From the sequence record KU935715.1: a DNA stretch of 64,000 nucleotides; one strand, written 5' to 3'. Under the pieces are notes generated by a model. That model saw nothing but the letters and a program-made list of their open reading frames with translations, was not told the DNA's origin and searched no databases. The translations under genes and the position numbers were made by a program. This DNA is from Acinetobacter phage vB_AbaM_ME3. Positions 37,999-62,144 of the stretch are shown one piece after another (the first letter of the stretch is position 1; each line of letters starts with the position of its first letter).

Positions 37999-40900
37999 AT
38001 GGATACACCAGTACAGTTAGATACTTTATATTTTACTGCTGCTGAAGAAAAAGAGATGTTTGTTATTAACGATATTGAGGTGGGTGTAAGCCCATCCGAT
38101 ATCATGATGTTTGATAACAACTATGTACATGAGCAGACATTTGTTAGATCAAACTCTGTCTTTTGTTACAGATCAAAATACTCTGAAACTAAAGTAACAC
38201 TAAACTTTCCCTTTCAAATAACCCCTCAAAATTTAGTAGCCTCTGGTGAAGACTTAGAAAATAATACGTATAACTGTATTAGATTAATAACTGAGTTAAA
38301 CAGCTATCCTTTCTGTTTTATTAAAAGTCCTCGATTAAAAACTTACGTATCTCCTGCTATGACATCTACAACAGACTACCTAATGTTTGCTGTAGAGGAA
38401 CTTGCTGTTGTTCAGTCAGCGGCAGCTTCTAACTTATTATTGCTTGAAGTTACTTTAGTGTATTTTAACCATGCGCCATTAGCAGCAGATTTTCAATTTG
38501 TTTCTAATAAAGTCGTAACTAAGTCAGGTACATTTAGTACAACAGAAGGTACTGTTAAGACAGAGAGAGACTACATATCTTTTGAAACTCCTAAAGTTGT
38601 TTCTAATTTAGTATCTTCTGATATTTGGGCTCAGTATATTAATCCTAAAGTAGATAAAGTTACTGAGAAATTAGAGAATAATGGTTTATATGAAAAGATG
38701 ATGAACTCTAAAACCACACATGCTGGTTTAGATGTTAATGTCTTCATTCCAATGATTTCTACAGGTATTGAACATGCTGCTAAGTATATGGCAGATGATG
38801 ATGGGAAGTTATTAGCTCCAGACGCTAAAGTAGTTGTAACTACTGATATGGCTCCAATGGAAGATCTAGATCTTCCTAGAAGTATTCGAGAAACCTTAGA
38901 TCAAAACTTTGACGAGTCTAGATTTGAAACTGATTCAATCAAAGGCATGGTAGGTAGAAAGAAAGTAAAAGATAGTAAAGACACTGATAGTACAGATATC
39001 TCTTCTACTAATGAAGTTTCTAATAAAGAAGAAGCTGTTAATAATGTAGGTAAGGATGGAAGCACTCCAAGAGGATACAAACAAGTTTATGTTCAATACA
39101 GTAAAGCTTCTTTTGCTCAACTTGGTTTAGCAGTACAAAAGATAGAAGTACGAAGAAAGAACATATTAGCTATACAAAAAATTGGTGCTTATAAACATCC
39201 TATCGTTCAATTTATGGGTAAGAGAGCTGCACAGACTACCATACAATTCTTAAATAACTCTGATGGAGTTTATAGCGAGTATGATGAAGATAGTGGTATA
39301 GCTTCTTTTCTTACTAATGCTTTTCAGATTCTAGATGAAAATAGAAGACTATATCCTGAAGCAGAGGCTTATAATACATTAAAGATTCATTCATTAGCTT
39401 CTTTTCTCTTAAACTCAGAATCATCAATTCCTAATATTAATAACTTAGTAGCATCAGCAGATAGAAATGGTATTGAAACAATGATCTATCACTTTGCTGA
39501 AACTAATGTAGAAGGATTATTTGATAGTAATAGATTAGAGGCTTCTGGAGCTAAATCTATTTCTAAAGCAAGATCAGAAGTATATGGAATAATTCTCACA
39601 TGGTTAAAAGAATTTAATAGATTACTTTCTAAAAGTAATAAAGAAGGCATTTATCATTTTGCTAATATGAATCAAGACCAAGAAGTTGTCGCTACCTCTT
39701 TAGATATATATGAAGATATTGTAAGAGTTACATTAGCAGGAATGAGAGATTTAGGATTAGATAAGCTCAAAGGAGATGCTGCTGTAATCAAAACAGTAAC
39801 AGATCAATTATCTGATGGAGAGATTTCTCTAGGGAGTGCTAATAAGTTTAGGAAATATTCTTTTGTTTCGTCTAAATCTAGAGTGTTAAGTTCTGGCTTA
39901 AACTTATATGTAGATGCTTCTGAGTCACCTGTAGACTACTTTGATCCTTCTTATTCAGTTAGAGAGATGAGCATTAGTAATTATCATAACTGGTTCTCTG
40001 GTTATGCTATTCAAATCCTTCAAGCTAAGTTAGATCAAATGGATGGGAAACCTATTAATTTAACAAATATTCAAATCAGTGATACACCATCTTCACAATT
40101 TGAAACCTTAGCTACAACTATTATCAATAAATTAGGAAGAACACCTGAAACTATTCCTTTTGGAAATTCTTTCTCAGATAGTCAAAAATTCTTTATTAAG
40201 AATATGATTGACACTTACATAGGTTCTATGTATGGACAGAATCTAAGCGATTTAAAGTTAGAAGACATAGAAGAAGACTATGATGTAACTAAAGATGTTG
40301 TTATTCAAAGTACAGACCCTTTCTTTTTCTTATATACTGAACCTCTTATTGCTGATGAAATGAAAGCATTCTTTAATGATAGTTATAATGAAGAACAATT
40401 AAATAATAAAGCTTTAGAAATAAACGAAGATGCCGAGACAGTAAAACAGATGTCTTCTATAGAAGTTATGCTTGGTGCTAACTACAGAAAGCTTGAAGAG
40501 GTTGATTTTAATGAGAGTGATTGGGCAAGTAATCCAGCTGAAACAGGCGTTGTAACTGTATGGGGAGGAAGTGTAAATCTTAAGCCTTCGAAGAATGTAT
40601 CTGAAGCTATTGAGTATGCTTTATCTGTTTATGGAATGTCTGGAGATGAAGAACTAAGACAGTATATGTATAAAACTGCTTATATTGAGTCTAGACTCGG
40701 TACTAATATGGGATCAGGTCAAACTTATAGAGGTTTGTATCAATTCAGCAGAGGTGCTTTAGATAGTGTTCTAAGAGCAAATAATAAAGCGTACGCTTCA
40801 AAAGGGTATAAAAATTTAAGACCAGCAGATGCTGCAAAAATTGCAGATAAGATATGGAGTGATTCAAGTTTTATTAGAGACTTTAAATCAAGTGCTGTCG

Positions 40901-43900
40901 CATTTTTAGATAGTATGTTTTTAGTTCATGGTGGAAAAAAGACTAATCCTAGAACTGGTAAATTTGACATGCCTTATACGTATGCTGGACATCAACAAGG
41001 TGGTGGAGGTCAAATTAATGTAGGGATTTATCTAAAAACTGGAGTTAGTCCTGCTGTAGGAAAGTCAGCTGAAAATTTAAGACAGAATTCATCATCTACA
41101 TGGGCTAACTGGTACGCAGTTCATTCTAAAAAATATAATGAGTTGGCTCCATATGCAGGAGCTCCAGGAGTAGATCAAGCTAAGAAAGATGCTAAAAAAC
41201 AAGATGCACTAACTAAGCAAACTGTTAGTCAGCCTTCACCTTCCTTTACATCTGCAAGTGCTAGAAATGGTACTTTAAAAACAGGTCAAACAGTAGTCGG
41301 ATATGTTGTAAGAGAAGTAGATGGTGATACATTAGATGTTCAGTATACTGTTGATGGTAAGTCTATTATTCAACGTATTCGTGTTGCTGGGTTAGATACT
41401 CCAGAGACAGATAAGAATAACTCTAAATATAATCCTAAGACTGAGAAGTATGGTCAACAAGCTAAAGCAGAACTTGCAAAACTTAGAGGAAAACAAGTAA
41501 GTATTTCTGTACTAGGGGTTGAGAATGATAATTCTGAATATTCTGTAACACCTAGTACAAAAGTTCGTCTAGTCGCTAGTGTAACTACTGTCGATAAGAC
41601 TAATGTAGGATTAGATATGATTAAGAAAGGATTAGCTAATGTTAATACTATCTTCTCTACTAACCAACAATATACTGCTGCTCTTGAAGCAGCTCAACGT
41701 AGTAAGAAAGGTATGTGGGCTGAATTACCTGCAAATAAAACAGGAGCTCCAACTCAACAACCAATCAGAAAACCAGTAACTCCAGAGTTTACAGGAGAGA
41801 CAGGGAATAATTTTCAACCATTTGCTAATGGTCAGAAGTTTCCTATTAGTTCTCCATTTACTTATGGTAAGCCTAGACAAGATATTAAACGTTCTTCACC
41901 TCACAATGGATTAGATTTAGCAGCTACTAAAGGTACGACTGTAATTGCAGCAGCTTCTGGTACAGCAACATTTAGAGTAGCGAGTGGTTATGGATATTTA
42001 GTTGAGATTGATCATCATAATGGTTTTAAAACTAGATATGCTCATTTATCTAAATCCTTTATTGGTAAAAAACCACAAAAAGTAAATGCTCACCAACCTA
42101 TTGGATTATCTGGTGGTGTTAAGGGAGATATAGGTGCAGGAAGTTCTACAAATGCTCATCTACACTATGAAGTTCATTATAAAGGACGACCAATACATCC
42201 TTTCACTACTAAACAAACATTAGATAAATATGCTGAAGGTTCTTTAGTAGAAGGAGAATTCTCAACATATCCTCAAACAGTAGAAAATAGTGGAATATAT
42301 ACCCCTCCATCTTACAATCCTCGAACAGGTATTACTCCTGAAAATACCGTATACAATGAACAGTACCTAGCAGAAGCTATTATTGATAATGCTAAGAAGT
42401 ACATTAATACAGGTATGAAAGTAGCTCTTCCAGCTATTAAAGTGTATATTGTAATAGGTAATGAGAATGACGGGTTAGGATTAAGTTCTTCGCTGACTGG
42501 TGTTCAATACTACGAACTAAATGGTGTTCAAGCTTTTAAGATGGTTTGCAATAATGATAATAATCCTATTGATGTTGCTATCATGCAAGTTATTAATCCA
42601 TCATTTATGCATACAGATGCTTGGACTAATCAAGCTCCTCCAGGTGTAGATTTAACTAAAGTAGGTACAGATTTAGAAACACAGCTATTGAAGAGTAGAA
42701 TGTTATTAAAAGTTGGTACTAAGCTTCAAGTCAGACTAGGTTATGGTAATGACCCTAATGAATTAGATATTGTATTTAATGGAGGTATTGTTGAAGTTGG
42801 TAACAATGAAAATAATCAAATCATGACTTTAGTTTTAGAAAGTTATGGTAGGGAGTTATTACAAGAGATTGTTAATCCAACTGCACCTGAAGAATCTCCA
42901 CAAGTTTCTACAACCAGTATTATTGGTAAAGCATTACAGTCTAGATCAATAGATCACTTTGGTGCTACTAACAATTTAATTAAATGGTTCTTTAAAGAAG
43001 GCGGAGAAGATCCTGAACAAAGATCTTTAGTGCCAGCAATAGATATTACAGGAAGAGCAGGATTCTTTAACTTGTTTTCAGCTTCTACGTATAGTTCTAG
43101 ACTTTACATGAATATCTTTGCACCAGAGATTGAAAATGTTGATAACACCTATAGTAGTTTATTAAGTTCTTTAATTGATGGTCTAGGTTGGTCTAATAAA
43201 CAAATGTTCCCTACATTCTTTATCTATCAAGCAACTGCTTGGGATATATGTAAACAAATGGAATACAGACACCCTGGCACAATATTTAAACCTATGATAT
43301 TTGAAGATAGAGTAACACCTTTCTATGGTATCAAAGAGCAGATGTATTTTGCTAGAGATTTATCTACTTATACACAGATGCAAGTAAAGGCTAAACTAGA
43401 AGATGAGGTTAGAGACAAACAAGTGCGAGATTACTACTCTAGACGTAGAGAACGTATGAAGCCTGTTAGTAATATTCATATGATTTCCTCTTCTACTAAT
43501 TTAATGTCTAATGGTATTAAATTAAATTCACAATGGAAAACTTCTGTAAACGTTTCTTGGTTTGAAGACAGTGATGACTTTAATGAATATTGGGAATGGC
43601 AAACTCAGAAGATGGATGTTGATGACAACTTACTTCCTTGGGAGATCAGAGAAAAAGAATTAAGAATGAGTGGTATTCATGGTAAATACTCTTCTTTCAT
43701 GTATGGCACAGAGGCTTTGAAAAAAGAAGCTGAAACTATGTACGGAGGAAGTATATTGATAACAGGTAATCCATCTGTTAAAGCAGGAGACTATATTTTT
43801 ATAGATGATACTGAAAACAGAATGTCTGGATTATGTTTAGTTAGAGACTGTATTCACCACTTTGATCCTCAGTTTGGCTTTGTCACTGAGATTACTCCAG

Positions 43901-44988
43901 GATTGTATGTAGAGCCTGCTGCTTTCATGTATAGTGCATTATGGATTAAACTTATGTGTACATTTAAGGTAGGTAGTAGTAAAATAAGACTTAATACATC
44001 ATCTGGCTATTCGTCTCAATATAATCTAATTAAGGACTATTTAGATTTGATGCAACAGTTAGTAGCAGCTGGAGATAATCCTTCCCTGTCTAACTACGAT
44101 ATAGAAGACTCTAGATTACTTATGTTAACGTACTCAACAGCTATTACTCTTTCAGCTTATATGGGTTGGAGTTTGTCTAGATTTTTAGGGCAAGGAGCTA
44201 CACCTATATTTAATAAGAAAGGTCTAGTTAGATTTAGTGCTGCCACGATGAGAGGATTGTTTCATACAGGAACTAATAGAGTCTTCAATTCAGCCTTAGC
44301 TAAAGTAAAGAAAATAGATAGAGTTGCTAAAACACTATCTTATGCTAATGGAAAGTATACAACTACCAAATCTACTGTAATTGCTTCAAAAGCCTTTCAA
44401 AGATTTGCAACATCTAAACCAGTAACCGCTTTAAATGGAATTAGAAACAGATGGTACTATAGATGGACTGCTGGCCTCACTAAAGGAACTGCTAGTCTAC
44501 TATTTAAAGGTGTTACTAGAGCTTCTATGGCAACCATACATGGTTTTGCTGCTAGTAATCCAGTGACACTGATACTTGATGTTGCTTTAACCTTAATTGC
44601 TTCTTGGGCTTTTGCTAAAATAGAAGAAAATAAATTGACAAGACAACCTTTACTATTCTTCCCTTTAATAGCTCATGGAAAACCATACGTTGCTGGTATG
44701 ATGGGTGCAGTTAGAAATAGTTGGCTTGATAGTAAAAAACTTGAAATTGGAAAAACATGGAATCAAGTTTCTAAAGCTGCTGCTGCAATAGATGCTAATA
44801 ACGGTGTGAAAGGTGAAAATACAAATCCTGTTGTTAAGTTAATAGCTAAGCAGTCACACGCTACAGCTGAAGTAAAGAATGTTAGTATGGTTAAGAAGCC
44901 AGTAACTCAAACAGTAACTATTGACCAAGTACAGAAACAATTTGATCCAGATGAAGGAACAGTTAAAAGTCCATTCAGACCTAAATAA
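37999..44988 (+). CDS. giant multi-domain virion protein (2329 aa): lytic transglycosylase (SLT) + staphylococcal-nuclease-like (SNase) + M23 peptidase domains; tape-measure/tail-hub-like
   Basis: SLT motif YIESRLGTNMGSGQTYRGLYQFS (~40680). SNase motifs VVREVDGDTLDV...RIRVAGLDTPET...KKGMWAE (~41280..41730). M23 motifs HNGLDLAA...GYLVEIDHHNGFKTRYAHL...NAHLHYEV (~41880..42200). Confidence 0.85.
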   Translation: MDTPVQLDTLYFTAAEEKEMFVINDIEVGVSPSDIMMFDNNYVHEQTFVRSNSVFCYRSKYSETKVTLNFPFQITPQNLVASGEDLENNTYNCIRLITELNSYPFCFIKSPRLKTYVSPAMTSTTDYLMFAVEELAVVQSAAASNLLLLEVTLVYFNHAPLAADFQFVSNKVVTKSGTFSTTEGTVKTERDYISFETPKVVSNLVSSDIWAQYINPKVDKVTEKLENNGLYEKMMNSKTTHAGLDVNVFIPMISTGIEHAAKYMADDDGKLLAPDAKVVVTTDMAPMEDLDLPRSIRETLDQNFDESRFETDSIKGMVGRKKVKDSKDTDSTDISSTNEVSNKEEAVNNVGKDGSTPRGYKQVYVQYSKASFAQLGLAVQKIEVRRKNILAIQKIGAYKHPIVQFMGKRAAQTTIQFLNNSDGVYSEYDEDSGIASFLTNAFQILDENRRLYPEAEAYNTLKIHSLASFLLNSESSIPNINNLVASADRNGIETMIYHFAETNVEGLFDSNRLEASGAKSISKARSEVYGIILTWLKEFNRLLSKSNKEGIYHFANMNQDQEVVATSLDIYEDIVRVTLAGMRDLGLDKLKGDAAVIKTVTDQLSDGEISLGSANKFRKYSFVSSKSRVLSSGLNLYVDASESPVDYFDPSYSVREMSISNYHNWFSGYAIQILQAKLDQMDGKPINLTNIQISDTPSSQFETLATTIINKLGRTPETIPFGNSFSDSQKFFIKNMIDTYIGSMYGQNLSDLKLEDIEEDYDVTKDVVIQSTDPFFFLYTEPLIADEMKAFFNDSYNEEQLNNKALEINEDAETVKQMSSIEVMLGANYRKLEEVDFNESDWASNPAETGVVTVWGGSVNLKPSKNVSEAIEYALSVYGMSGDEELRQYMYKTAYIESRLGTNMGSGQTYRGLYQFSRGALDSVLRANNKAYASKGYKNLRPADAAKIADKIWSDSSFIRDFKSSAVAFLDSMFLVHGGKKTNPRTGKFDMPYTYAGHQQGGGGQINVGIYLKTGVSPAVGKSAENLRQNSSSTWANWYAVHSKKYNELAPYAGAPGVDQAKKDAKKQDALTKQTVSQPSPSFTSASARNGTLKTGQTVVGYVVREVDGDTLDVQYTVDGKSIIQRIRVAGLDTPETDKNNSKYNPKTEKYGQQAKAELAKLRGKQVSISVLGVENDNSEYSVTPSTKVRLVASVTTVDKTNVGLDMIKKGLANVNTIFSTNQQYTAALEAAQRSKKGMWAELPANKTGAPTQQPIRKPVTPEFTGETGNNFQPFANGQKFPISSPFTYGKPRQDIKRSSPHNGLDLAATKGTTVIAAASGTATFRVASGYGYLVEIDHHNGFKTRYAHLSKSFIGKKPQKVNAHQPIGLSGGVKGDIGAGSSTNAHLHYEVHYKGRPIHPFTTKQTLDKYAEGSLVEGEFSTYPQTVENSGIYTPPSYNPRTGITPENTVYNEQYLAEAIIDNAKKYINTGMKVALPAIKVYIVIGNENDGLGLSSSLTGVQYYELNGVQAFKMVCNNDNNPIDVAIMQVINPSFMHTDAWTNQAPPGVDLTKVGTDLETQLLKSRMLLKVGTKLQVRLGYGNDPNELDIVFNGGIVEVGNNENNQIMTLVLESYGRELLQEIVNPTAPEESPQVSTTSIIGKALQSRSIDHFGATNNLIKWFFKEGGEDPEQRSLVPAIDITGRAGFFNLFSASTYSSRLYMNIFAPEIENVDNTYSSLLSSLIDGLGWSNKQMFPTFFIYQATAWDICKQMEYRHPGTIFKPMIFEDRVTPFYGIKEQMYFARDLSTYTQMQVKAKLEDEVRDKQVRDYYSRRRERMKPVSNIHMISSSTNLMSNGIKLNSQWKTSVNVSWFEDSDDFNEYWEWQTQKMDVDDNLLPWEIREKELRMSGIHGKYSSFMYGTEALKKEAETMYGGSILITGNPSVKAGDYIFIDDTENRMSGLCLVRDCIHHFDPQFGFVTEITPGLYVEPAAFMYSALWIKLMCTFKVGSSKIRLNTSSGYSSQYNLIKDYLDLMQQLVAAGDNPSLSNYDIEDSRLLMLTYSTAITLSAYMGWSLSRFLGQGATPIFNKKGLVRFSAATMRGLFHTGTNRVFNSALAKVKKIDRVAKTLSYANGKYTTTKSTVIASKAFQRFATSKPVTALNGIRNRWYYRWTAGLTKGTASLLFKGVTRASMATIHGFAASNPVTLILDVALTLIASWAFAKIEENKLTRQPLLFFPLIAHGKPYVAGMMGAVRNSWLDSKKLEIGKTWNQVSKAAAAIDANNGVKGENTNPVVKLIAKQSHATAEVKNVSMVKKPVTQTVTIDQVQKQFDPDEGTVKSPFRPK

Positions 44989-47672: not shown

Positions 47673-49767
47673 CAGTGTAGGATCAATTCTAACTATTAGT
47701 AATACATCTTTAAATGTAACTGAAGCTGATATAATTTATATATCAGCTTCTAAGAAATACGAGCATACAGTAACAATATCTAATAATGGAATAGATAGTA
47801 TTTATATATCATCGGTTGCTTATTTATCTAACTCGAATACAGGGCAGAAATATACTTTAAGTACTTCTCGTATATCAGCAACCACTTTTAAAATTATTAC
47901 AGAGCCTAGAACAACAGAGTTTGCAGACATAGATGAATTAGAGTTAGTAGTACTGTATGAAGACGTAGAATATAGAGCTAAATCTTATGTTTCCCCAGTA
48001 TATGTAAATTCTAATGCTCATGTAATTGAATTTAAAACAGGAACAGTACCTTTAAATCAATCTAACATGCTATACCCTAGAATTAAGATAGGATTCCCTA
48101 GATGGGGAACTATAGAGAAAAATACTATTTCAAATGGCACTAAACTCTTAGAACCTCTATTTACTCCTCTGTACGACTCTTATTTCAAAGTAATTGATTT
48201 TAATTTACATACTAAATTCAAAACTCCATACACTAGATTTAAGAGCTTTGAAACAGGTTATAGGCCTCATAGTGTTTTTCAATTCTCAGGAACTACTTAT
48301 AGAAGAATGTATGAGTGTTCTTCAACTCAATCCTTGCCGAAAAGGATTGACTTAAATTCAACAAACACTTCTTTAACAACTGCTAGATTATTTTTATTAG
48401 CTAATACTGATTATGACTATGATTTTTCATTTCTAATTAATACTAGAATTTATTGTAGAAAACTTAATAACTCTTTAGAACAAGATGTTCTAACAATAAA
48501 AGGATTAGATTTAAAAGGAGATAGACTAGAAGAAAGAGTTATAGTTGTGGAAGACTTTTACACATGTGCTGTAAATAAGTTTAGTAAAATTTTTACAATC
48601 ACTTGTAACAGTAGCGTAGTTGTTTCTAATTATGTAAATTGTGTATTTAATCATTTCATTGTTAAGGATATTAACACTCTCCCTCCTATTGTTGATTCTG
48701 ATTTGTTCGCTTTCTTCCCTCAGTGTATAAAATTCTCAAACAATGAAAAAACAAGAGACACTTTACATATCTTCAATAGTACTAACTACCTTACAGAACC
48801 TCAGTATAAGTTTGATTTAGAGCATACAGGAAGAATAACATCTATGTATGTAGATGAATTCTTGAAGATATACTGGACAGACTCCTCTAATAAACTATAT
48901 ACAAATTGTATTAATCATGATCTATCTAAAGACGTAGGAAAAAATCCTTCAAATAATAATAACAATATTATTGTAGTTTCAGATCAGAATACAGCTATAG
49001 GAGATTGGGTAGATGTTTCTGTAATGTTAACTGAGTGGGAAGCTAATACCTCAATGGTGCTGCAAGTTAAGAATGGACAAGAGACTCTATATTATGATCA
49101 AGATACAGAATCGTTTGTAGCAGGAATTAGATATTTTTATCCTCCTGAAAATTTAGATATCCTTGAAGTCTCTGCTAAAGTTTTAAATGACTCACCCTAT
49201 ATTTTTACAGTATTTGATGATACATTAGAAAAACAGTATACTGCTTCTACTCAAAGTCAATATTTAAAAAGCACACAAGAACCTATAGCAGTAACGGGGA
49301 CCTTAAGTGTAATAAATGATAAGTTGTCATTAACTGATAATCTAGTAAATACTATAAGCTATAGTTCTGTATCAGATAAAATATTACTTACATTAACATC
49401 AAAAGATTTCTCTATGCTTGACTGGGAATTAGATTTTCTTGGTATGAAGATATCTAAAACATTCACGTCCATGCCTGAGGATTACTACTCAATAATTTCT
49501 AATGGATCTAATGATAATCCTTTAATTATTGAAATAGATAGAATGGCTGTTATTTATGACTATAATTTAGATAGAGTTCCTATGACACTTAATTTTAAGT
49601 ATGATACAATGTATAATAGAGGAATTCTTAGTAACGTAGAATTACAGTTAGCAGATAAGTATGGTATTAGAGATAAAGATTTATCTATTGCAGCATCTGA
49701 TAGCTATATAACAATTCCAATGGATTTCACTAGAAACACAAAGGATATTAATTATGTTGCAGTCTAA
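47665..49767 (+). CDS. baseplate/tail-fibre attachment protein (700 aa)
   Basis: Overlapping start with a GGAG RBS. In the baseplate block. Confidence 0.55.
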   Translation: MDNSVGSILTISNTSLNVTEADIIYISASKKYEHTVTISNNGIDSIYISSVAYLSNSNTGQKYTLSTSRISATTFKIITEPRTTEFADIDELELVVLYEDVEYRAKSYVSPVYVNSNAHVIEFKTGTVPLNQSNMLYPRIKIGFPRWGTIEKNTISNGTKLLEPLFTPLYDSYFKVIDFNLHTKFKTPYTRFKSFETGYRPHSVFQFSGTTYRRMYECSSTQSLPKRIDLNSTNTSLTTARLFLLANTDYDYDFSFLINTRIYCRKLNNSLEQDVLTIKGLDLKGDRLEERVIVVEDFYTCAVNKFSKIFTITCNSSVVVSNYVNCVFNHFIVKDINTLPPIVDSDLFAFFPQCIKFSNNEKTRDTLHIFNSTNYLTEPQYKFDLEHTGRITSMYVDEFLKIYWTDSSNKLYTNCINHDLSKDVGKNPSNNNNNIIVVSDQNTAIGDWVDVSVMLTEWEANTSMVLQVKNGQETLYYDQDTESFVAGIRYFYPPENLDILEVSAKVLNDSPYIFTVFDDTLEKQYTASTQSQYLKSTQEPIAVTGTLSVINDKLSLTDNLVNTISYSSVSDKILLTLTSKDFSMLDWELDFLGMKISKTFTSMPEDYYSIISNGSNDNPLIIEIDRMAVIYDYNLDRVPMTLNFKYDTMYNRGILSNVELQLADKYGIRDKDLSIAASDSYITIPMDFTRNTKDINYVAV

Positions 49768-49939
49768 AACTACTCAAATATACTCAGAAATAAATACAAG
49801 CAACATTGGGTACCAGTATGATTCTAGAGATAAAGAAATATTCTTAGAAGAAGGATATAAATATTCTATTGTTACTACAATTAATGGTGTTCTTATAAGA
49901 ACTGACATAGATCTGACAGAGGTGAATAATGATAATTAA
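49754..49939 (+). CDS. small hypothetical protein (61 aa)
   Basis: Fits between overlapping neighbours. Weak support. Confidence 0.35.
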   Translation: MLQSKTTQIYSEINTSNIGYQYDSRDKEIFLEEGYKYSIVTTINGVLIRTDIDLTEVNNDN

Positions 49940-59785: not shown

Positions 59786-60502
59786 ATGGCTGAATTAACA
59801 GGTAAGTCAATAATTGAATTAACTCAAGCTCCTTCTATTAATGAGACTACGAACATTGTAGTTCAACGACAAGGAAGTCCTAGAGCTGAAAAAACTCAGT
59901 TAAGTGAAGTAGTTAAATTAGTTACTAATAGTACAACTTTGAACGAGAGTGTTCAGTCAACAATATCAGATAACGTATCTTTAAAATTAGGTCAACATGT
60001 ATCTGCTTCAGATCCACATGGGGATAGGTTATTTACCACTTCAACTATGAATAACCATTTAAGCTCTTTAGATCCACATGGAGATAGAGCTTATACAGAT
60101 AGTAAAGTAGCAGCTCACTCTTCTTCAGTTGACCCTCACGGGGATAGAGCTTTCACTATAACTTCTATTACAAATCACTCTAAATCAGAAGATCCACATG
60201 GAGACCGTGCCTATGCATTAGCTCAAATTAATGCGCATAAGGTAGCAACAGATCCACATGGAGATAGAGCTCATGCTTTAAGTCTTATGAATATTCATAA
60301 GACAACAGAAGTTGATCCACACGGAGATAGAGCTTATACAGATGGAGTTGTAAATACACATAAAGATGAGACAGACCCACATGGGTTAAAATCTTTAATA
60401 ACTACACTACTAAATGAGCATAATACAAGTAATTCAATCACATGGTTTAGATGTAAAAAAAAATTTGCTGAGATTCCTAATACAGTCAAATTCAACAGTT
60501 AA
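59786..60502 (+). CDS. tail-fibre N-terminal segment with 7 tandem 20-aa 'DPHGDRAY...H' repeats; probably one gene with 60414..62144 (frame break at the A9 tract)
   Basis: GAGGA RBS. The repeat array continues in this frame up to ~60440. A poly-A9 run at 60455..60463 separates the two frames. Confidence 0.6.
   Translation: MAELTGKSIIELTQAPSINETTNIVVQRQGSPRAEKTQLSEVVKLVTNSTTLNESVQSTISDNVSLKLGQHVSASDPHGDRLFTTSTMNNHLSSLDPHGDRAYTDSKVAAHSSSVDPHGDRAFTITSITNHSKSEDPHGDRAYALAQINAHKVATDPHGDRAHALSLMNIHKTTEVDPHGDRAYTDGVVNTHKDETDPHGLKSLITTLLNEHNTSNSITWFRCKKKFAEIPNTVKFNS
60011..60433 (+). repeat. 7 tandem copies of a 60-nt unit (one is 63 nt) encoding DPHGDRA(Y/F/H)x6-7H
   Basis: Units begin at 60011, 60071, 60131, 60191, 60251, 60314 and 60374. 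The nucleotide core GATCCACATGGAGATAGAGC is highly conserved. Confidence 0.85.
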
Positions 60503-62144
60503 TGCAACATTGAGTCAACGAATTGGAACAACAATTGCTCCTCTTGTAAGTGGAAAAGTTCCAGATCAATATATAAGAACAAATATCTTATTTAGTAATT
60601 TAGCTCAGTTTCCTACTACTGGTTCACTAAATGTATTATACATTGATACATTAACTAGAAAGATGTATGTATGGGCTTCTGGTGGATATAAAGATATTTC
60701 TCCTACTGTTGAGTTAAGTGGTATATCTTTAAGTACAGATAATGTTGCACAAGGCTCTAATCCAGATAGACAGTATTTAACAGCTGATCTTAAAGCAAAC
60801 TATGACTCTAAGCTCTCCAATATCACTTCAACAGGTAGTGGAAAATCTGTACACTTAGTATCTAAAACAGGTGCTAATGCTTTTGTTCGAGGTCTAGATT
60901 CAGATAGTAGTATAAGTATTACTGATAGAGGAGACAGTTTAGTTCTTAATACAAATTATTATAAGTTTGTAGCAAAATACAATGGAACAGTAAAATTAGA
61001 TTCTAAGACTGAACTCTTAAAAGCTATAGATGAAAATGATATAGTTACATTAGAGGGTGACGTATTTGCATATGCTTATAAAGAAGCTGGGGATGTTAAA
61101 TTAATTGATTTCTATAATACATGGAATGTTAAAGCTGTAGTAGCTACTACGGGTACATCAACTCCAATAGCTTCTCCTACAAACCTAGTTATTTCTTCAA
61201 ATGGACTTGTTGTGAGTGGGTCAGGGACTGCTTCTACTACAGCTGAAATTTATAGTGATACAAATCAATTACTAGGTTCAGCAACAACAATTTCTGATGG
61301 TACTTTTACAATTACTTTTGGATCTCCTGAGTTAACAGGTAGAAGATTAAAAGCATACACAGTTACACCAGAAGGGAATAGATCTAAACCTACTTACTTT
61401 TTCTCTAATAATACAACATCTATTAAGGCGATAGATTGTATTTCAATTAGTTCAGATGGGCTAAAATTAAGAGGAAATACATCTAGAGCAAGTACAGTAA
61501 AAGTGTTTAACAGTAGTAATACAGAGCTAGGTTCAGCAACTGCAAATGATTATGGAAACTTTACAGTTACTTTATCCTCTGCTGTACATACTGGAGATAC
61601 AGTCAGAATAGAAGCTACATTAGGTACTACATTAACAGCAAGTGTTCCTTCATATTTAGTAACTATTAAAGATATTCAAGCACCTTATGACATTGAGTAC
61701 AACTTAGATAGAACTGTATTTACAGGTAAAGCAGAACCATTAAGTACAATTACATTCTCTACAACAGCAATAAGTATAAATGCAGTTACTAAAGCTGATG
61801 GATCGTTTGCAATTTATTCTTTTGCAAACCCAATTGCAGGTAGTGGAGATTTAGCTGTAGAAGTTAAACAAGAAACTAGAACAAATGGGATTCTATTAAA
61901 GTTAAATCAATTAGACGCTAAAGTAGCAGATGATCCAGTAGTAAAAGATGCTATTGGAACACACTCTACATCTTTCCTCAATAAAACTGTAACACCAATA
62001 CTAGGTACAGCTGGAAATGCAACATTTGACGTGTTATTGGATTCAATGATTAAGGATATTGAATTAGTAGGTACTAGTCCAACAGGTAAAGAACTTGTAT
62101 GGGAAGCTAATCTTAAAATCATTAAGAAAAATATAGGAGAATAA
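60414..62144 (+). CDS. tail-fibre C-terminal segment with three bacterial Ig-like repeat domains (576 aa as drawn)
   Basis: Three homologous ~85-aa segments (...TISDGTFTITFGSPELTGRRLKAYTVTPEGNRSKPTYF / ...NDYGNFTVTLSSAVHTGDTVRIEATLG / ...ADGSFAIYSFANPIAGSGDLAVEVKQ). A stop codon lies immediately before the ATG. Confidence 0.6.
   Translation: MSIIQVIQSHGLDVKKNLLRFLIQSNSTVNATLSQRIGTTIAPLVSGKVPDQYIRTNILFSNLAQFPTTGSLNVLYIDTLTRKMYVWASGGYKDISPTVELSGISLSTDNVAQGSNPDRQYLTADLKANYDSKLSNITSTGSGKSVHLVSKTGANAFVRGLDSDSSISITDRGDSLVLNTNYYKFVAKYNGTVKLDSKTELLKAIDENDIVTLEGDVFAYAYKEAGDVKLIDFYNTWNVKAVVATTGTSTPIASPTNLVISSNGLVVSGSGTASTTAEIYSDTNQLLGSATTISDGTFTITFGSPELTGRRLKAYTVTPEGNRSKPTYFFSNNTTSIKAIDCISISSDGLKLRGNTSRASTVKVFNSSNTELGSATANDYGNFTVTLSSAVHTGDTVRIEATLGTTLTASVPSYLVTIKDIQAPYDIEYNLDRTVFTGKAEPLSTITFSTTAISINAVTKADGSFAIYSFANPIAGSGDLAVEVKQETRTNGILLKLNQLDAKVADDPVVKDAIGTHSTSFLNKTVTPILGTAGNATFDVLLDSMIKDIELVGTSPTGKELVWEANLKIIKKNIGE
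60455..60463 (+). repeat. A9 homopolymer at the junction between the two tail-fibre reading frames
   Basis: ...GATGTAAAAAAAAATTTGCTG...; the upstream frame continues 16 codons past it to a stop. The downstream frame is closed by TAA at 60411..60413, just before its first ATG (60414). Confidence 0.9.

What the first reader, a model, noticed from the sequence alone, without database searches (positions are those of the whole stretch)
59786..62144. Tail-fibre gene broken into two frames at an A9 tract: candidate slippage site or homopolymer sequencing error
The DPHGDR-repeat ORF (frame 2) runs to 60502. The Ig-repeat ORF (frame 3) has a stop codon at 60411..60413 directly before its ATG, and both overlap across 60414..60502. 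A run of nine A (60455..60463) sits exactly in the overlap. Losing one A in the mRNA or DNA would fuse the two into a single ~780-aa fibre with the architecture: N-terminal anchor, 7x 20-aa repeats, then three Ig-like domains. Runs of nine or more A are known sites of transcriptional slippage and phase variation, so two fibre isoforms (short repeat-only and long Ig-bearing) may be made. Alternatively it is an assembly indel.
Basis: seen in the sequence. Interest (0 to 1): 0.6.

Follow-up and report, generated by a model that had tools for sequence, protein, structure and literature searches.

The report
Fibre gene split by seven extra A's
A conserved tail-fibre-like gene of Acinetobacter jumbo phage ME3 looks split in two only because this 454-sequenced record carries seven extra A's in three nearby A-runs that no relative has, so it is most likely a sequencing error and not a programmed slippage site.

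Summary
ORF 59786..60502 (frame 2) and ORF 60414..62144 (frame 3) overlap by 89 nt. The only A9 in the 64-kb window (60455..60463) lies in that overlap, and deleting one A opens a 785-aa ORF.

The break is more complex than one A. The window is Acinetobacter phage vB_AbaM_ME3, sequenced by 454 pyrosequencing. All 54 full-length homologues encode one protein of about 703-793 aa. Five relatives aligned at DNA level (97-71% identity) have A2-A4 at this site.

ME3 differs from them by exactly seven extra A's in three A-runs within 53 nt:
- A to AA at 60436/7
- A4 to A9 at 60455-63
- AA to AAA at 60488-90

These are the only indels in 6.9 kb of 98.7%-identical DNA. Removing them restores a 2352-nt ORF whose junction matches the closest relative 48/48 nt. 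The ancestral frame therefore runs 2, 3, 2, 3. An A8 product would carry about 17 out-of-frame residues.

The downstream part shows dN/dS 0.11 and has no ribosome-binding site of its own.

Best explanation: a local pyrosequencing or assembly artefact (about 0.75). Rivals are a real recent lesion in the sequenced stock (about 0.2) and evolved recoding (about 0.03). Interest is low.

The parts
59786..62144 (+). One fibre-like gene as it stands in this record. It is 2359 nt (1 mod 3), and 2352 nt / 783 aa once the seven ME3-only A's are removed.
59786..60502 (+). ORF1, frame 2, 238 aa. It has a good Shine-Dalgarno (GAGGA). The ME3 record annotates it as a separate protein (UniProt A0A172Q023).
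60414..62144 (+). ORF2, frame 3, 576 aa by the longest-ORF rule. The record annotates 544 aa from TTG 60510 (P0006 / A0A172Q032). No Shine-Dalgarno precedes any start codon in its first 50 codons.
60011..60391 (+). Seven 60-nt (20-aa) repeats. Each encodes a 14-residue helix plus a DPHGDR loop, together forming the stalk.
60436..60437 (+). First ME3-only insertion: AA where all five relatives have one base at this position (A in three, T in two). The ancestral frame moves from frame 2 to frame 3.
60438..60454 (+). Eighth, degenerate repeat (S-H-G-L-D-V), readable only in frame 3. It matches relatives and restores the 60-nt period once the extra A is removed.
60455..60463 (+). A9 tract. It is A4 in the two closest relatives and A3/A2/A3 in three others. 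Five extra A's move the ancestral frame from 3 back to 2.
60464..60487 (+). F-A-E-I-P-N-T-V, the ancestral reading, which lies in frame 2.
60488..60490 (+). Third ME3-only insertion: AAA where the relatives have one A fewer (AA in four of five). The ancestral frame moves from 2 to 3 for the rest of the gene.
60489..62144 (+). Remainder of the gene in frame 3. It comprises a low-confidence hinge, a beta-rich middle region, the Ig array and a C-terminal beta-sandwich. dN/dS against the closest relative is 0.11.
61173..61904 (+). Three tandem Big_6 (PF17936) Ig-like domains.

Best explanation
This is one conserved gene of about 783 aa in the baseplate/fibre module of Acinetobacter jumbo phage vB_AbaM_ME3. 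Its parts are an N-terminal anchor, a stalk of eight helix-plus-DPHGDR-loop repeats, a hinge, a beta-rich region, three Big_6 Ig domains and a C-terminal beta-sandwich. It appears as two overlapping ORFs because the deposited 454 FLX+ sequence has seven surplus A's in three A-runs within 53 nt (A to AA, A4 to A9, AA to AAA). The most likely cause is a local pyrosequencing or assembly artefact: over-called A flows, carry-forward insertions, or a patch covered only by poor read ends or a contig join. At least one of the three indels must be an error, because any pair that includes the +5 sums to +6 and is in frame, and A8 in place of A9 also gives +6. On this view the real phage makes one full-length protein and no isoform mechanism exists. 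Shown here: the gene is single in all relatives, the seven A's are unique to ME3, the record comes from 454, and the downstream part is under purifying selection. Inferred: the extra A's are errors and not mutations.
For: P0006 is 100% identical to ORF2 and is named as an ME3 protein. The ME3 genome paper states 454 FLX Titanium PLUS sequencing (PMC5000817). All 54 full-length homologues (703-793 aa) are single ORFs colinear across the junction. DNA alignments to five relatives from five SRA runs give exactly seven ME3-only columns, all A (60436, 60455-59, 60488), and every relative's gene length is a multiple of 3. Over 6927 nt at 98.67% identity to L001, these 7 gap positions in 3 openings are the only indels. 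If three indels fell independently, the chance of all lying within 53 nt is about 2e-4 (my arithmetic), so they share one local cause. After removing them the ORF is 2352 nt and the 48-nt junction is identical to L001. dN/dS downstream is 0.11, with 52 synonymous and 20 non-synonymous differences. ORF2 has no Shine-Dalgarno, and its 89-nt overlap with ORF1 is the only junction among the 45 ORFs examined that no start with a Shine-Dalgarno resolves, although eight other ORFs also lack a recognisable one. In 454 data, insertions are the commonest error. They are tied to homopolymers and to read 3' ends, and can exceed 50% at particular positions (PMC3116506). Carry-forward adds single bases of the same type near a homopolymer (PMC3764156).
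Against: A4 to A9 is a much larger over-call than the usual +/-1 pyrosequencing error. Two of the three sites are very short runs (1 and 2 A's), which are normally called reliably. The rest of the record looks clean: in about 34 kb of the window compared with relatives, no other frame-breaking indel or gene-length change was found. No reads or quality values are available, so the error was not observed directly.
Confidence: 0.75

Rival explanations
1. The seven A's are real. The sequenced ME3 stock carries a recently inactivated accessory fibre gene and makes mainly the 238-aa N-terminal fragment. Because an A9 now lies in the overlap, unselected RNA-polymerase or ribosome slippage to A8 could rescue some full-length protein with a scrambled 17-residue stalk segment.
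For: The record is otherwise clean over about 34 kb, so a cluster of three consensus errors is odd. +5 in a 4-mer is atypical for 454. Runs of 9 A are efficient transcriptional slippage sites in bacteria (PMC1088944). A8 gives an open 785-aa ORF. The affected stalk segment is absent from the short-form homologues (a 47-aa gap in P0035-P0054), so it may tolerate scrambling. Lab stocks of phages are known to carry frameshifted side-fibre genes, for example lambda PaPa stf (my own knowledge).
Against: Three separate A insertions within 53 nt have to be explained in a lineage that shows only 2 substitutions in the adjacent 651 nt. One frameshift would be enough to inactivate the gene. The downstream 1.65 kb has no stop codon and dN/dS 0.11, so any lesion is very recent. 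The sequencing platform is the one known for exactly this class of error.
Confidence: 0.2
2. This is an evolved recoding or phase-variation site. The A9 tract is maintained to produce a short repeat-only isoform and a long Ig-bearing isoform by transcriptional slippage, or by tract-length switching in the population.
For: An A9 lies inside the overlap of two long ORFs, and it is the only A9 in 64 kb. A9 is a known slippage-prone length.
Against: The tract is not conserved: A4, A4, A3, A2 and A3 in five relatives. No homologue of 54 has a stop, a second Lys or a two-ORF layout here. The slipped product would not recreate the conserved sequence, because two further indels flank the tract. A -1 shift or A10 runs into a stop after three codons, KKIC*.
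Confidence: 0.03

Closest known systems
Homopolymer over-call and carry-forward insertion errors of 454 pyrosequencing (Gilles et al. 2011, PMC3116506; Iyer et al. 2013, PMC3764156)
   Same: The record comes from 454 FLX+. All surplus bases are one base type and extend existing runs of that base. Single-base insertions of the same base lie near, but not adjacent to, the longest homopolymer. The result is a spurious frameshift in an otherwise conserved gene.
   Different: The size of the main event (+5 on a 4-mer) is larger than the typical +/-1. The errors reached the consensus although the rest of the record appears accurate.
Frameshifted side-tail-fibre gene stf of laboratory lambda PaPa (orf401/orf314; Hendrix and Duda 1992; cited from memory, not re-read here)
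   Same: A fibre gene that is intact in wild relatives appears as two adjacent ORFs in the laboratory isolate because of a small indel. The phage remains viable.
   Different: In lambda it is a single verified 1-bp change. Here there are three A-insertions, unverified by reads, from an error-prone platform.
Transcriptional slippage on A9/T9 runs (Thermus thermophilus dnaX, IS element transposases; Baranov et al. 2005, PMC1088944)
   Same: A run of nine A's in the sense strand lies at the junction of two overlapping frames. If the run is real, it would yield A8/A10 transcripts.
   Different: In those systems the run and the two-frame layout are conserved and both products are meaningful. Here relatives have A2-A4 and a single ORF.
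Hypermutable poly-G tracts in receptor-binding protein genes of Campylobacter phages (Sorensen et al. 2021; from memory)
   Same: A homopolymer tract in a fibre or receptor-binding gene could switch expression on and off.
   Different: Those tracts are conserved among related phages and their length heterogeneity is seen in reads. Neither holds or can be shown here.
Programmed -1 ribosomal frameshift in tail assembly chaperone genes (lambda G/GT type; from memory)
   Same: It concerns a phage tail-module gene pair with overlapping frames.
   Different: The direction is wrong: frame 2 to 3 needs +1 or -2, and -1 hits a stop after 3 codons. The gene class is also wrong, and the site is not conserved.

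Membership tests
454 homopolymer/assembly indel artefact | The record was produced by flow-based (pyro)sequencing | tested here: met
   The ME3 genome paper states 454 FLX Titanium PLUS. The window is identified as ME3 by the 100%-identical P0006 and by the BFVD entries.
454 homopolymer/assembly indel artefact | The indels are length changes of homopolymer runs of one base type | tested here: met
   The seven ME3-only columns are all A, extending runs 1 to 2, 4 to 9 and 2 to 3.
454 homopolymer/assembly indel artefact | The gene is intact in independent sequences of close relatives, and the frame is restored by removing the surplus bases | tested here: met
   Five relatives at DNA level and 54 at protein level are intact. 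The corrected ORF is 2352 nt with a junction 48/48 identical to L001.
454 homopolymer/assembly indel artefact | Reads show low coverage or quality, or disagree, at the site | not testable with these tools
   No reads are available. ME3 itself is absent from the contig collections searched.
Programmed transcriptional slippage / recoding site | A slippery homopolymer (about 9 A or T) in the overlap of two ORFs | tested here: met
   A9 at 60455..60463 lies within the overlap 60414..60502.
Programmed transcriptional slippage / recoding site | The run and the two-frame arrangement are conserved in relatives | tested here: not met
   Relatives have A4/A4/A3/A2/A3 and a single ORF. None of the 54 homologues is split.
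Programmed transcriptional slippage / recoding site | The slipped product corresponds to the conserved full-length protein | tested here: not met
   The A8 product has about 17 out-of-frame residues because two more indels flank the tract.
Programmed transcriptional slippage / recoding site | Heterogeneous tract length in mRNA, and both polypeptides detected | not testable with these tools
   This needs RNA-seq and mass spectrometry.
Phase-variable phage receptor-binding gene (hypermutable tract) | The tract is conserved among related phages | tested here: not met
Phase-variable phage receptor-binding gene (hypermutable tract) | Tract-length heterogeneity within a phage population | not testable with these tools
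   No read data are available.
Lambda G/GT-type -1 programmed ribosomal frameshift | A -1 shift joins the upstream ORF to the downstream ORF | tested here: not met
   The -1 frame after the tract reads KKIC*. The downstream ORF is in the +1 frame.
Phage tail fibre / receptor-binding protein (functional class) | The gene lies in the baseplate/tail module | tested here: met
   Four genes downstream of a 1180-aa protein with Gp10_C (PF21939, E = 3.5e-23) and PHROG 'tail protein' (E = 0). A 2329-aa M23-peptidase/SNase protein lies upstream.
Phage tail fibre / receptor-binding protein (functional class) | Modular build: a shared N-terminal stalk with exchangeable distal domains | tested here: met
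   The DPHG-repeat stalk is shared with proteins ending in beta-helix/pectate-lyase, GDSL esterase or K1-lyase_C domains. The AF2 model shows stalk, hinge, Ig array and distal beta-sandwich.
Phage tail fibre / receptor-binding protein (functional class) | Sequence or fold match to a characterised fibre protein, or presence in virions | tested here: inconclusive
   There was no PHROG, PDB-sequence or Pfam fibre hit. Fold searches returned only generic tandem Ig/FN3 arrays.
Big_6 (PF17936) domain proteins | Score above Pfam's gathering threshold | tested here: met
   102.5 bits against a cut-off of 27.6, in three stretches.

The most novel reading that the evidence does not exclude
All seven extra A's are real. 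In the ME3 isolate an accessory fibre gene was freshly hit by A-insertions that created an A9 tract by chance. RNA-polymerase or ribosome slippage on that tract now yields a mixture of a 238-aa stalk fragment and a full-length fibre with a scrambled 17-residue stalk segment. That would be a recoding or phase-variable site caught at its birth in a jumbo phage.
Probability: 0.08. Interest if true: 0.45.

Novelty: not a real feature. Interest (0 to 1): 0.12.

Why it matters
The main value is as a correction. ME3 gp050 (238 aa) and gp051 (544 aa, given a TTG start with no ribosome-binding site) in GenBank, UniProt and BFVD are almost certainly two pieces of one 783-aa fibre-like protein. Anyone studying host range, receptor binding or engineering of this reference Acinetobacter jumbo phage should use the corrected sequence or re-sequence the locus. 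The case is also a caution for scans. A long homopolymer in an ORF overlap looks like a recoding signal, but comparison with relatives showed that the tract is not conserved and that two further hidden indels flank it. If the lesion proved real, it would be a modest example of an isolate-specific broken fibre gene, like lambda PaPa stf, with possible slippage rescue.

Tried and rejected
**Searches that found nothing useful**
- Megablast and tblastn against the GenBank phage collection found no relative of either half. ME3 and its kin are not in that copy, so all comparative evidence came from the protein collection and Logan contigs.
- Exact look-ups of ORF1 and of P0006 in the gene-position index found nothing. 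ME3's own contig could therefore not be re-read independently. BFVD entries confirmed that both pieces are annotated in the record.
- A pattern scan allowing any tract length (GATGTAAAA N0-8 TTTGCTGAR...) in IMG/VR and JGI metagenomes found no match. No independent sequence with a long tract was found.
- PHROGs, PDB sequence search and Foldseek (PDB, BFVD) gave no specific fibre homologue, only generic Ig/FN3 arrays.
- TRF found no tandem repeat at its thresholds. The repeat finder did find the 60-nt period.

**Ideas rejected**
- Independent translation of ORF2 is rejected. No Shine-Dalgarno precedes ATG 60414, TTG 60465, TTG 60510 or any start in the first 50 codons, whereas 36 of 45 ORFs in the window have one.
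- A -1 ribosomal frameshift or an A10 tract is rejected, because the frame stops after three codons.
- A DGR-like adenine-targeted process was considered because all changes involve A. It was rejected because the changes are insertions and not A-to-N substitutions. I did not search specifically for a template repeat or a reverse transcriptase.
- A generally error-ridden record is rejected. About 27 kb more of the window was compared with L006. Gene lengths all match within 1-2 aa, and the only gaps are multiples of three, intergenic, or paired +1/-1 alignment noise in divergent stretches.
Full report
**1. The observation**

- ORF1 is 59786..60502, frame 2, 238 aa.
- ORF2 is 60414..62144, frame 3, 576 aa.
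- TAA at 60411..60413 comes immediately before the frame-3 ATG, and the overlap is 89 nt.
- A run of nine A's sits at 60455..60463, inside the overlap.

The A9 is the longest homopolymer in the window. Only four runs of 7 or more exist in 64 kb. It is the only A9, where dinucleotide-preserving shuffles give 4.9 +/- 2.95. Long A-runs are therefore avoided in this genome, and the one exception sits in an interval that is 0.14% of the window.

Other checks also hold:
- Deleting one A gives an open 785-aa ORF.
- The 60-nt DPHGDR repeats are real.
- The three Big_6 Ig domains are real.

One detail in the raw sequence already argues against a simple one-A story. An eighth, degenerate repeat (S-H-G-L-D) lies upstream of the A9 but is readable only in frame 3. 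Its His codon (60441) is 61 nt after the His codon of repeat 7 (60380), which is one period plus one base.

**2. Identity of the sequence**

A protein search with the fused sequence returned P0006. It is 544 aa, 100% identical to ORF2 from TTG 60510, and named as a hypothetical protein of Acinetobacter phage vB_AbaM_ME3 (contig 234,900 bp). BFVD holds both pieces as separate ME3 proteins: A0A172Q023 (238 aa) and A0A172Q032 (544 aa). The split is therefore in the public record.

The genome announcement states that ME3 was sequenced with 454 FLX Titanium PLUS (PMC5000817).

**3. What relatives show**

- The same search found 54 full-length homologues (703-793 aa, 96% down to about 30% identity). 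All are single proteins covering both halves.
- In their alignment the junction reads ...LLNEHNTSNS-SHGLDVK-FAEIPNTV-NSTVNATLSQRIG... in the closest relatives. There is a single Lys where ME3 has its A-tract, and no stop.
- These four blocks map onto the window's frames as 2, 3, 2, 3.
- DNA of five relatives from five different SRA runs (L001-L005, 96.9% to 71.5% nt identity) was aligned to the ME3 gene. The columns present only in ME3 are exactly seven, all A: 60436, 60455-60459 and 60488. These are A to AA, A4 to A9 and AA to AAA.
- The relatives' tracts at the A9 site are A4, A4, A3, A2 and A3. Their gene lengths are all multiples of three, while ME3's is 2359, which is 1 mod 3.
- Across 6927 nt aligned to L001 at 98.67% identity, these 7 gap positions in 3 openings are the only indels.
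- Three independent indels would all fall within 53 nt of 6.9 kb with probability about 2e-4 (my arithmetic). They must share a local cause.

**4. State of the gene**

- Removing the seven A's gives a 2352-nt ORF of 783 aa, and the 48-nt junction is identical to L001.
- Downstream of the break, ME3 and L001 differ by 52 synonymous and 20 non-synonymous changes (dN/dS 0.11). That frame has been translated for essentially all of the time since divergence. The N-terminal part differs at only 2 of 651 nt.
- ORF2 has no Shine-Dalgarno before any start codon in its first 50 codons, including the annotated TTG. By contrast, 36 of 45 ORFs in the window have one.
- Its 89-nt overlap with ORF1 is the only junction in the window not resolved by a start with a Shine-Dalgarno at or just downstream of the listed one.
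- ORF2 is therefore not an independent gene.

**5. What the protein is**

- The gene lies in the baseplate/tail module. Four genes upstream is a 1180-aa protein with a T4 Gp10 C-terminal domain (PF21939, E = 3.5e-23) and a PHROG 'tail protein' match. Further upstream is a 2329-aa protein with M23 peptidase and SNase domains.
- An AlphaFold2 model of the intact homologue P0001 has mean pLDDT 79. It shows a small N-terminal beta element, then 14-residue helices separated by six-residue DPHGDR loops (residues 50-243).
- After that come a low-confidence hinge (236-255), a beta-rich middle region, three Ig domains and a C-terminal beta-sandwich.
- The lesion falls in the last stalk helix, just before the hinge.
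- The DPHG-repeat stalk has no Pfam or PHROG family. It is shared with at least 35 other proteins whose C-termini carry beta-helix/pectate-lyase, GDSL esterase or K1-lyase_C domains. This is the modular pattern of phage fibres and tailspikes.
- No direct match to a characterised fibre was found. 'Tail fibre' is therefore a well-founded inference, not a demonstrated membership.

**6. Mechanism: best explanation**

The split is most likely an artefact of pyrosequencing or assembly. Several points support this:
- The platform is the one known for this class of error.
- All surplus bases are one base type extending existing runs.
- Insertions are the commonest 454 error. They are tied to homopolymers and read 3' ends, and can exceed 50% at specific positions (PMC3116506).
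- Carry-forward adds single bases of the same type near, but not adjacent to, a homopolymer (PMC3764156).

The arithmetic allows several sub-variants that I cannot separate:
- All three indels are errors, so the true gene is identical in layout to P0001.
- Only one is an error. Any pair that includes the +5 sums to +6 and is in frame. A true A8 (+1, +4, +1 = +6) would also be in frame, and an A8 to A9 over-call is the most typical 454 mistake.

In each sub-variant the phage makes one full-length protein. In the one-error variants a stretch of 9-17 stalk residues would differ from the relatives. That segment is missing altogether from the short-form homologues, so it may be tolerant of change.

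Points against the artefact reading:
- +5 on a 4-mer is unusually large.
- Runs of 1 and 2 are normally called well.
- About 34 kb of the window compared with relatives shows no other frame-breaking indel.
- A local cause has to be assumed, such as a low-coverage patch, read tails or a manual contig join. It cannot be checked without the reads.

I put this explanation at about 0.75.

**7. Rivals**

(a) A real, recent lesion in the sequenced stock (about 0.2).
- A broken accessory fibre in a laboratory isolate has a classic precedent in lambda PaPa stf (from memory).
- With a real A9, unselected slippage by RNA polymerase would give some A8 transcripts (A9 is the slippage-prone length in many bacteria, PMC1088944). 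That would yield some full-length protein.
- Against it: three insertions where one would suffice, in a lineage with only 2 substitutions in the adjacent 651 nt.

(b) An evolved slippage or phase-variation site making two isoforms (about 0.03).
- The tract and the two-ORF layout are absent from every relative.
- The slipped product does not recreate the conserved sequence.
- A -1 shift or A10 stops after KKIC.

**8. Verdict**

The favoured interpretation is not supported.

The finding is best filed as not a real biological feature. It has practical value as an annotation correction for ME3 gp050/gp051. Interest is low (0.12).

The most novel reading not excluded is a freshly born slippage-rescued fibre gene. 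I give it a probability of about 0.08 and moderate interest if true.

Noticed in passing
window 59786..62144 compared with L001 2713..5064: Divergence from the closest relative is very uneven. There are 2 differences in the first 651 nt and 72 in the last 1650 nt, while the flanking genes are about 99% identical. This suggests recombinational exchange or faster evolution of the Ig-bearing distal half.
   Followed up: partly
window 59990..60460 (protein residues about 70-225); P0056-P0090: The helix-plus-DPHGDR-loop 20-aa repeat stalk has no Pfam or PHROG model. It recurs in at least 35 other proteins, including Streptomyces ones, joined to beta-helix, GDSL esterase or K1-lyase_C domains. Each repeat has two conserved His. 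It is a candidate for a new repeat-family definition and possibly for metal binding in a trimer.
   Followed up: partly
whole window: The window is 32.4% G+C, whereas the ME3 genome announcement gives 40% overall. Either this structural region is much more AT-rich than the rest of the genome or the published figure is off.
   Followed up: no
whole window: Homopolymers are strongly avoided. Only four runs of 7 or more occur in 64 kb of 36% A / 32% T sequence. Without the suspect tract, the longest run would be 7.
   Followed up: partly
P0035-P0054 compared with P0001 residues about 187-233: A short-form subfamily (703-759 aa) lacks 47 residues, equal to the last two stalk repeats. This is the very segment hit in ME3, so stalk length is variable in the family.
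   Followed up: no
window 37999..44988: A 2329-aa protein combines a staphylococcal-nuclease-like domain (residues 1126-1241) with an M23 peptidase domain (residues 1301-1401). It is conserved at similar length in about 29 relatives. The combination is unusual for a giant tail-associated protein.
   Followed up: no
window 60510 (TTG): The public annotation starts gp051 at TTG 60510 (MSQRIG...), which has no upstream Shine-Dalgarno. This start was probably chosen only because the true upstream part was out of frame.
   Followed up: yes
window about 49750..49930; L006 21764..21949: In relative L006 a 61-aa gene is called between the 700-aa and 208-aa genes. The corresponding 160-nt gap in the window has no ORF of 100 aa or more and was not examined.
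   Followed up: no
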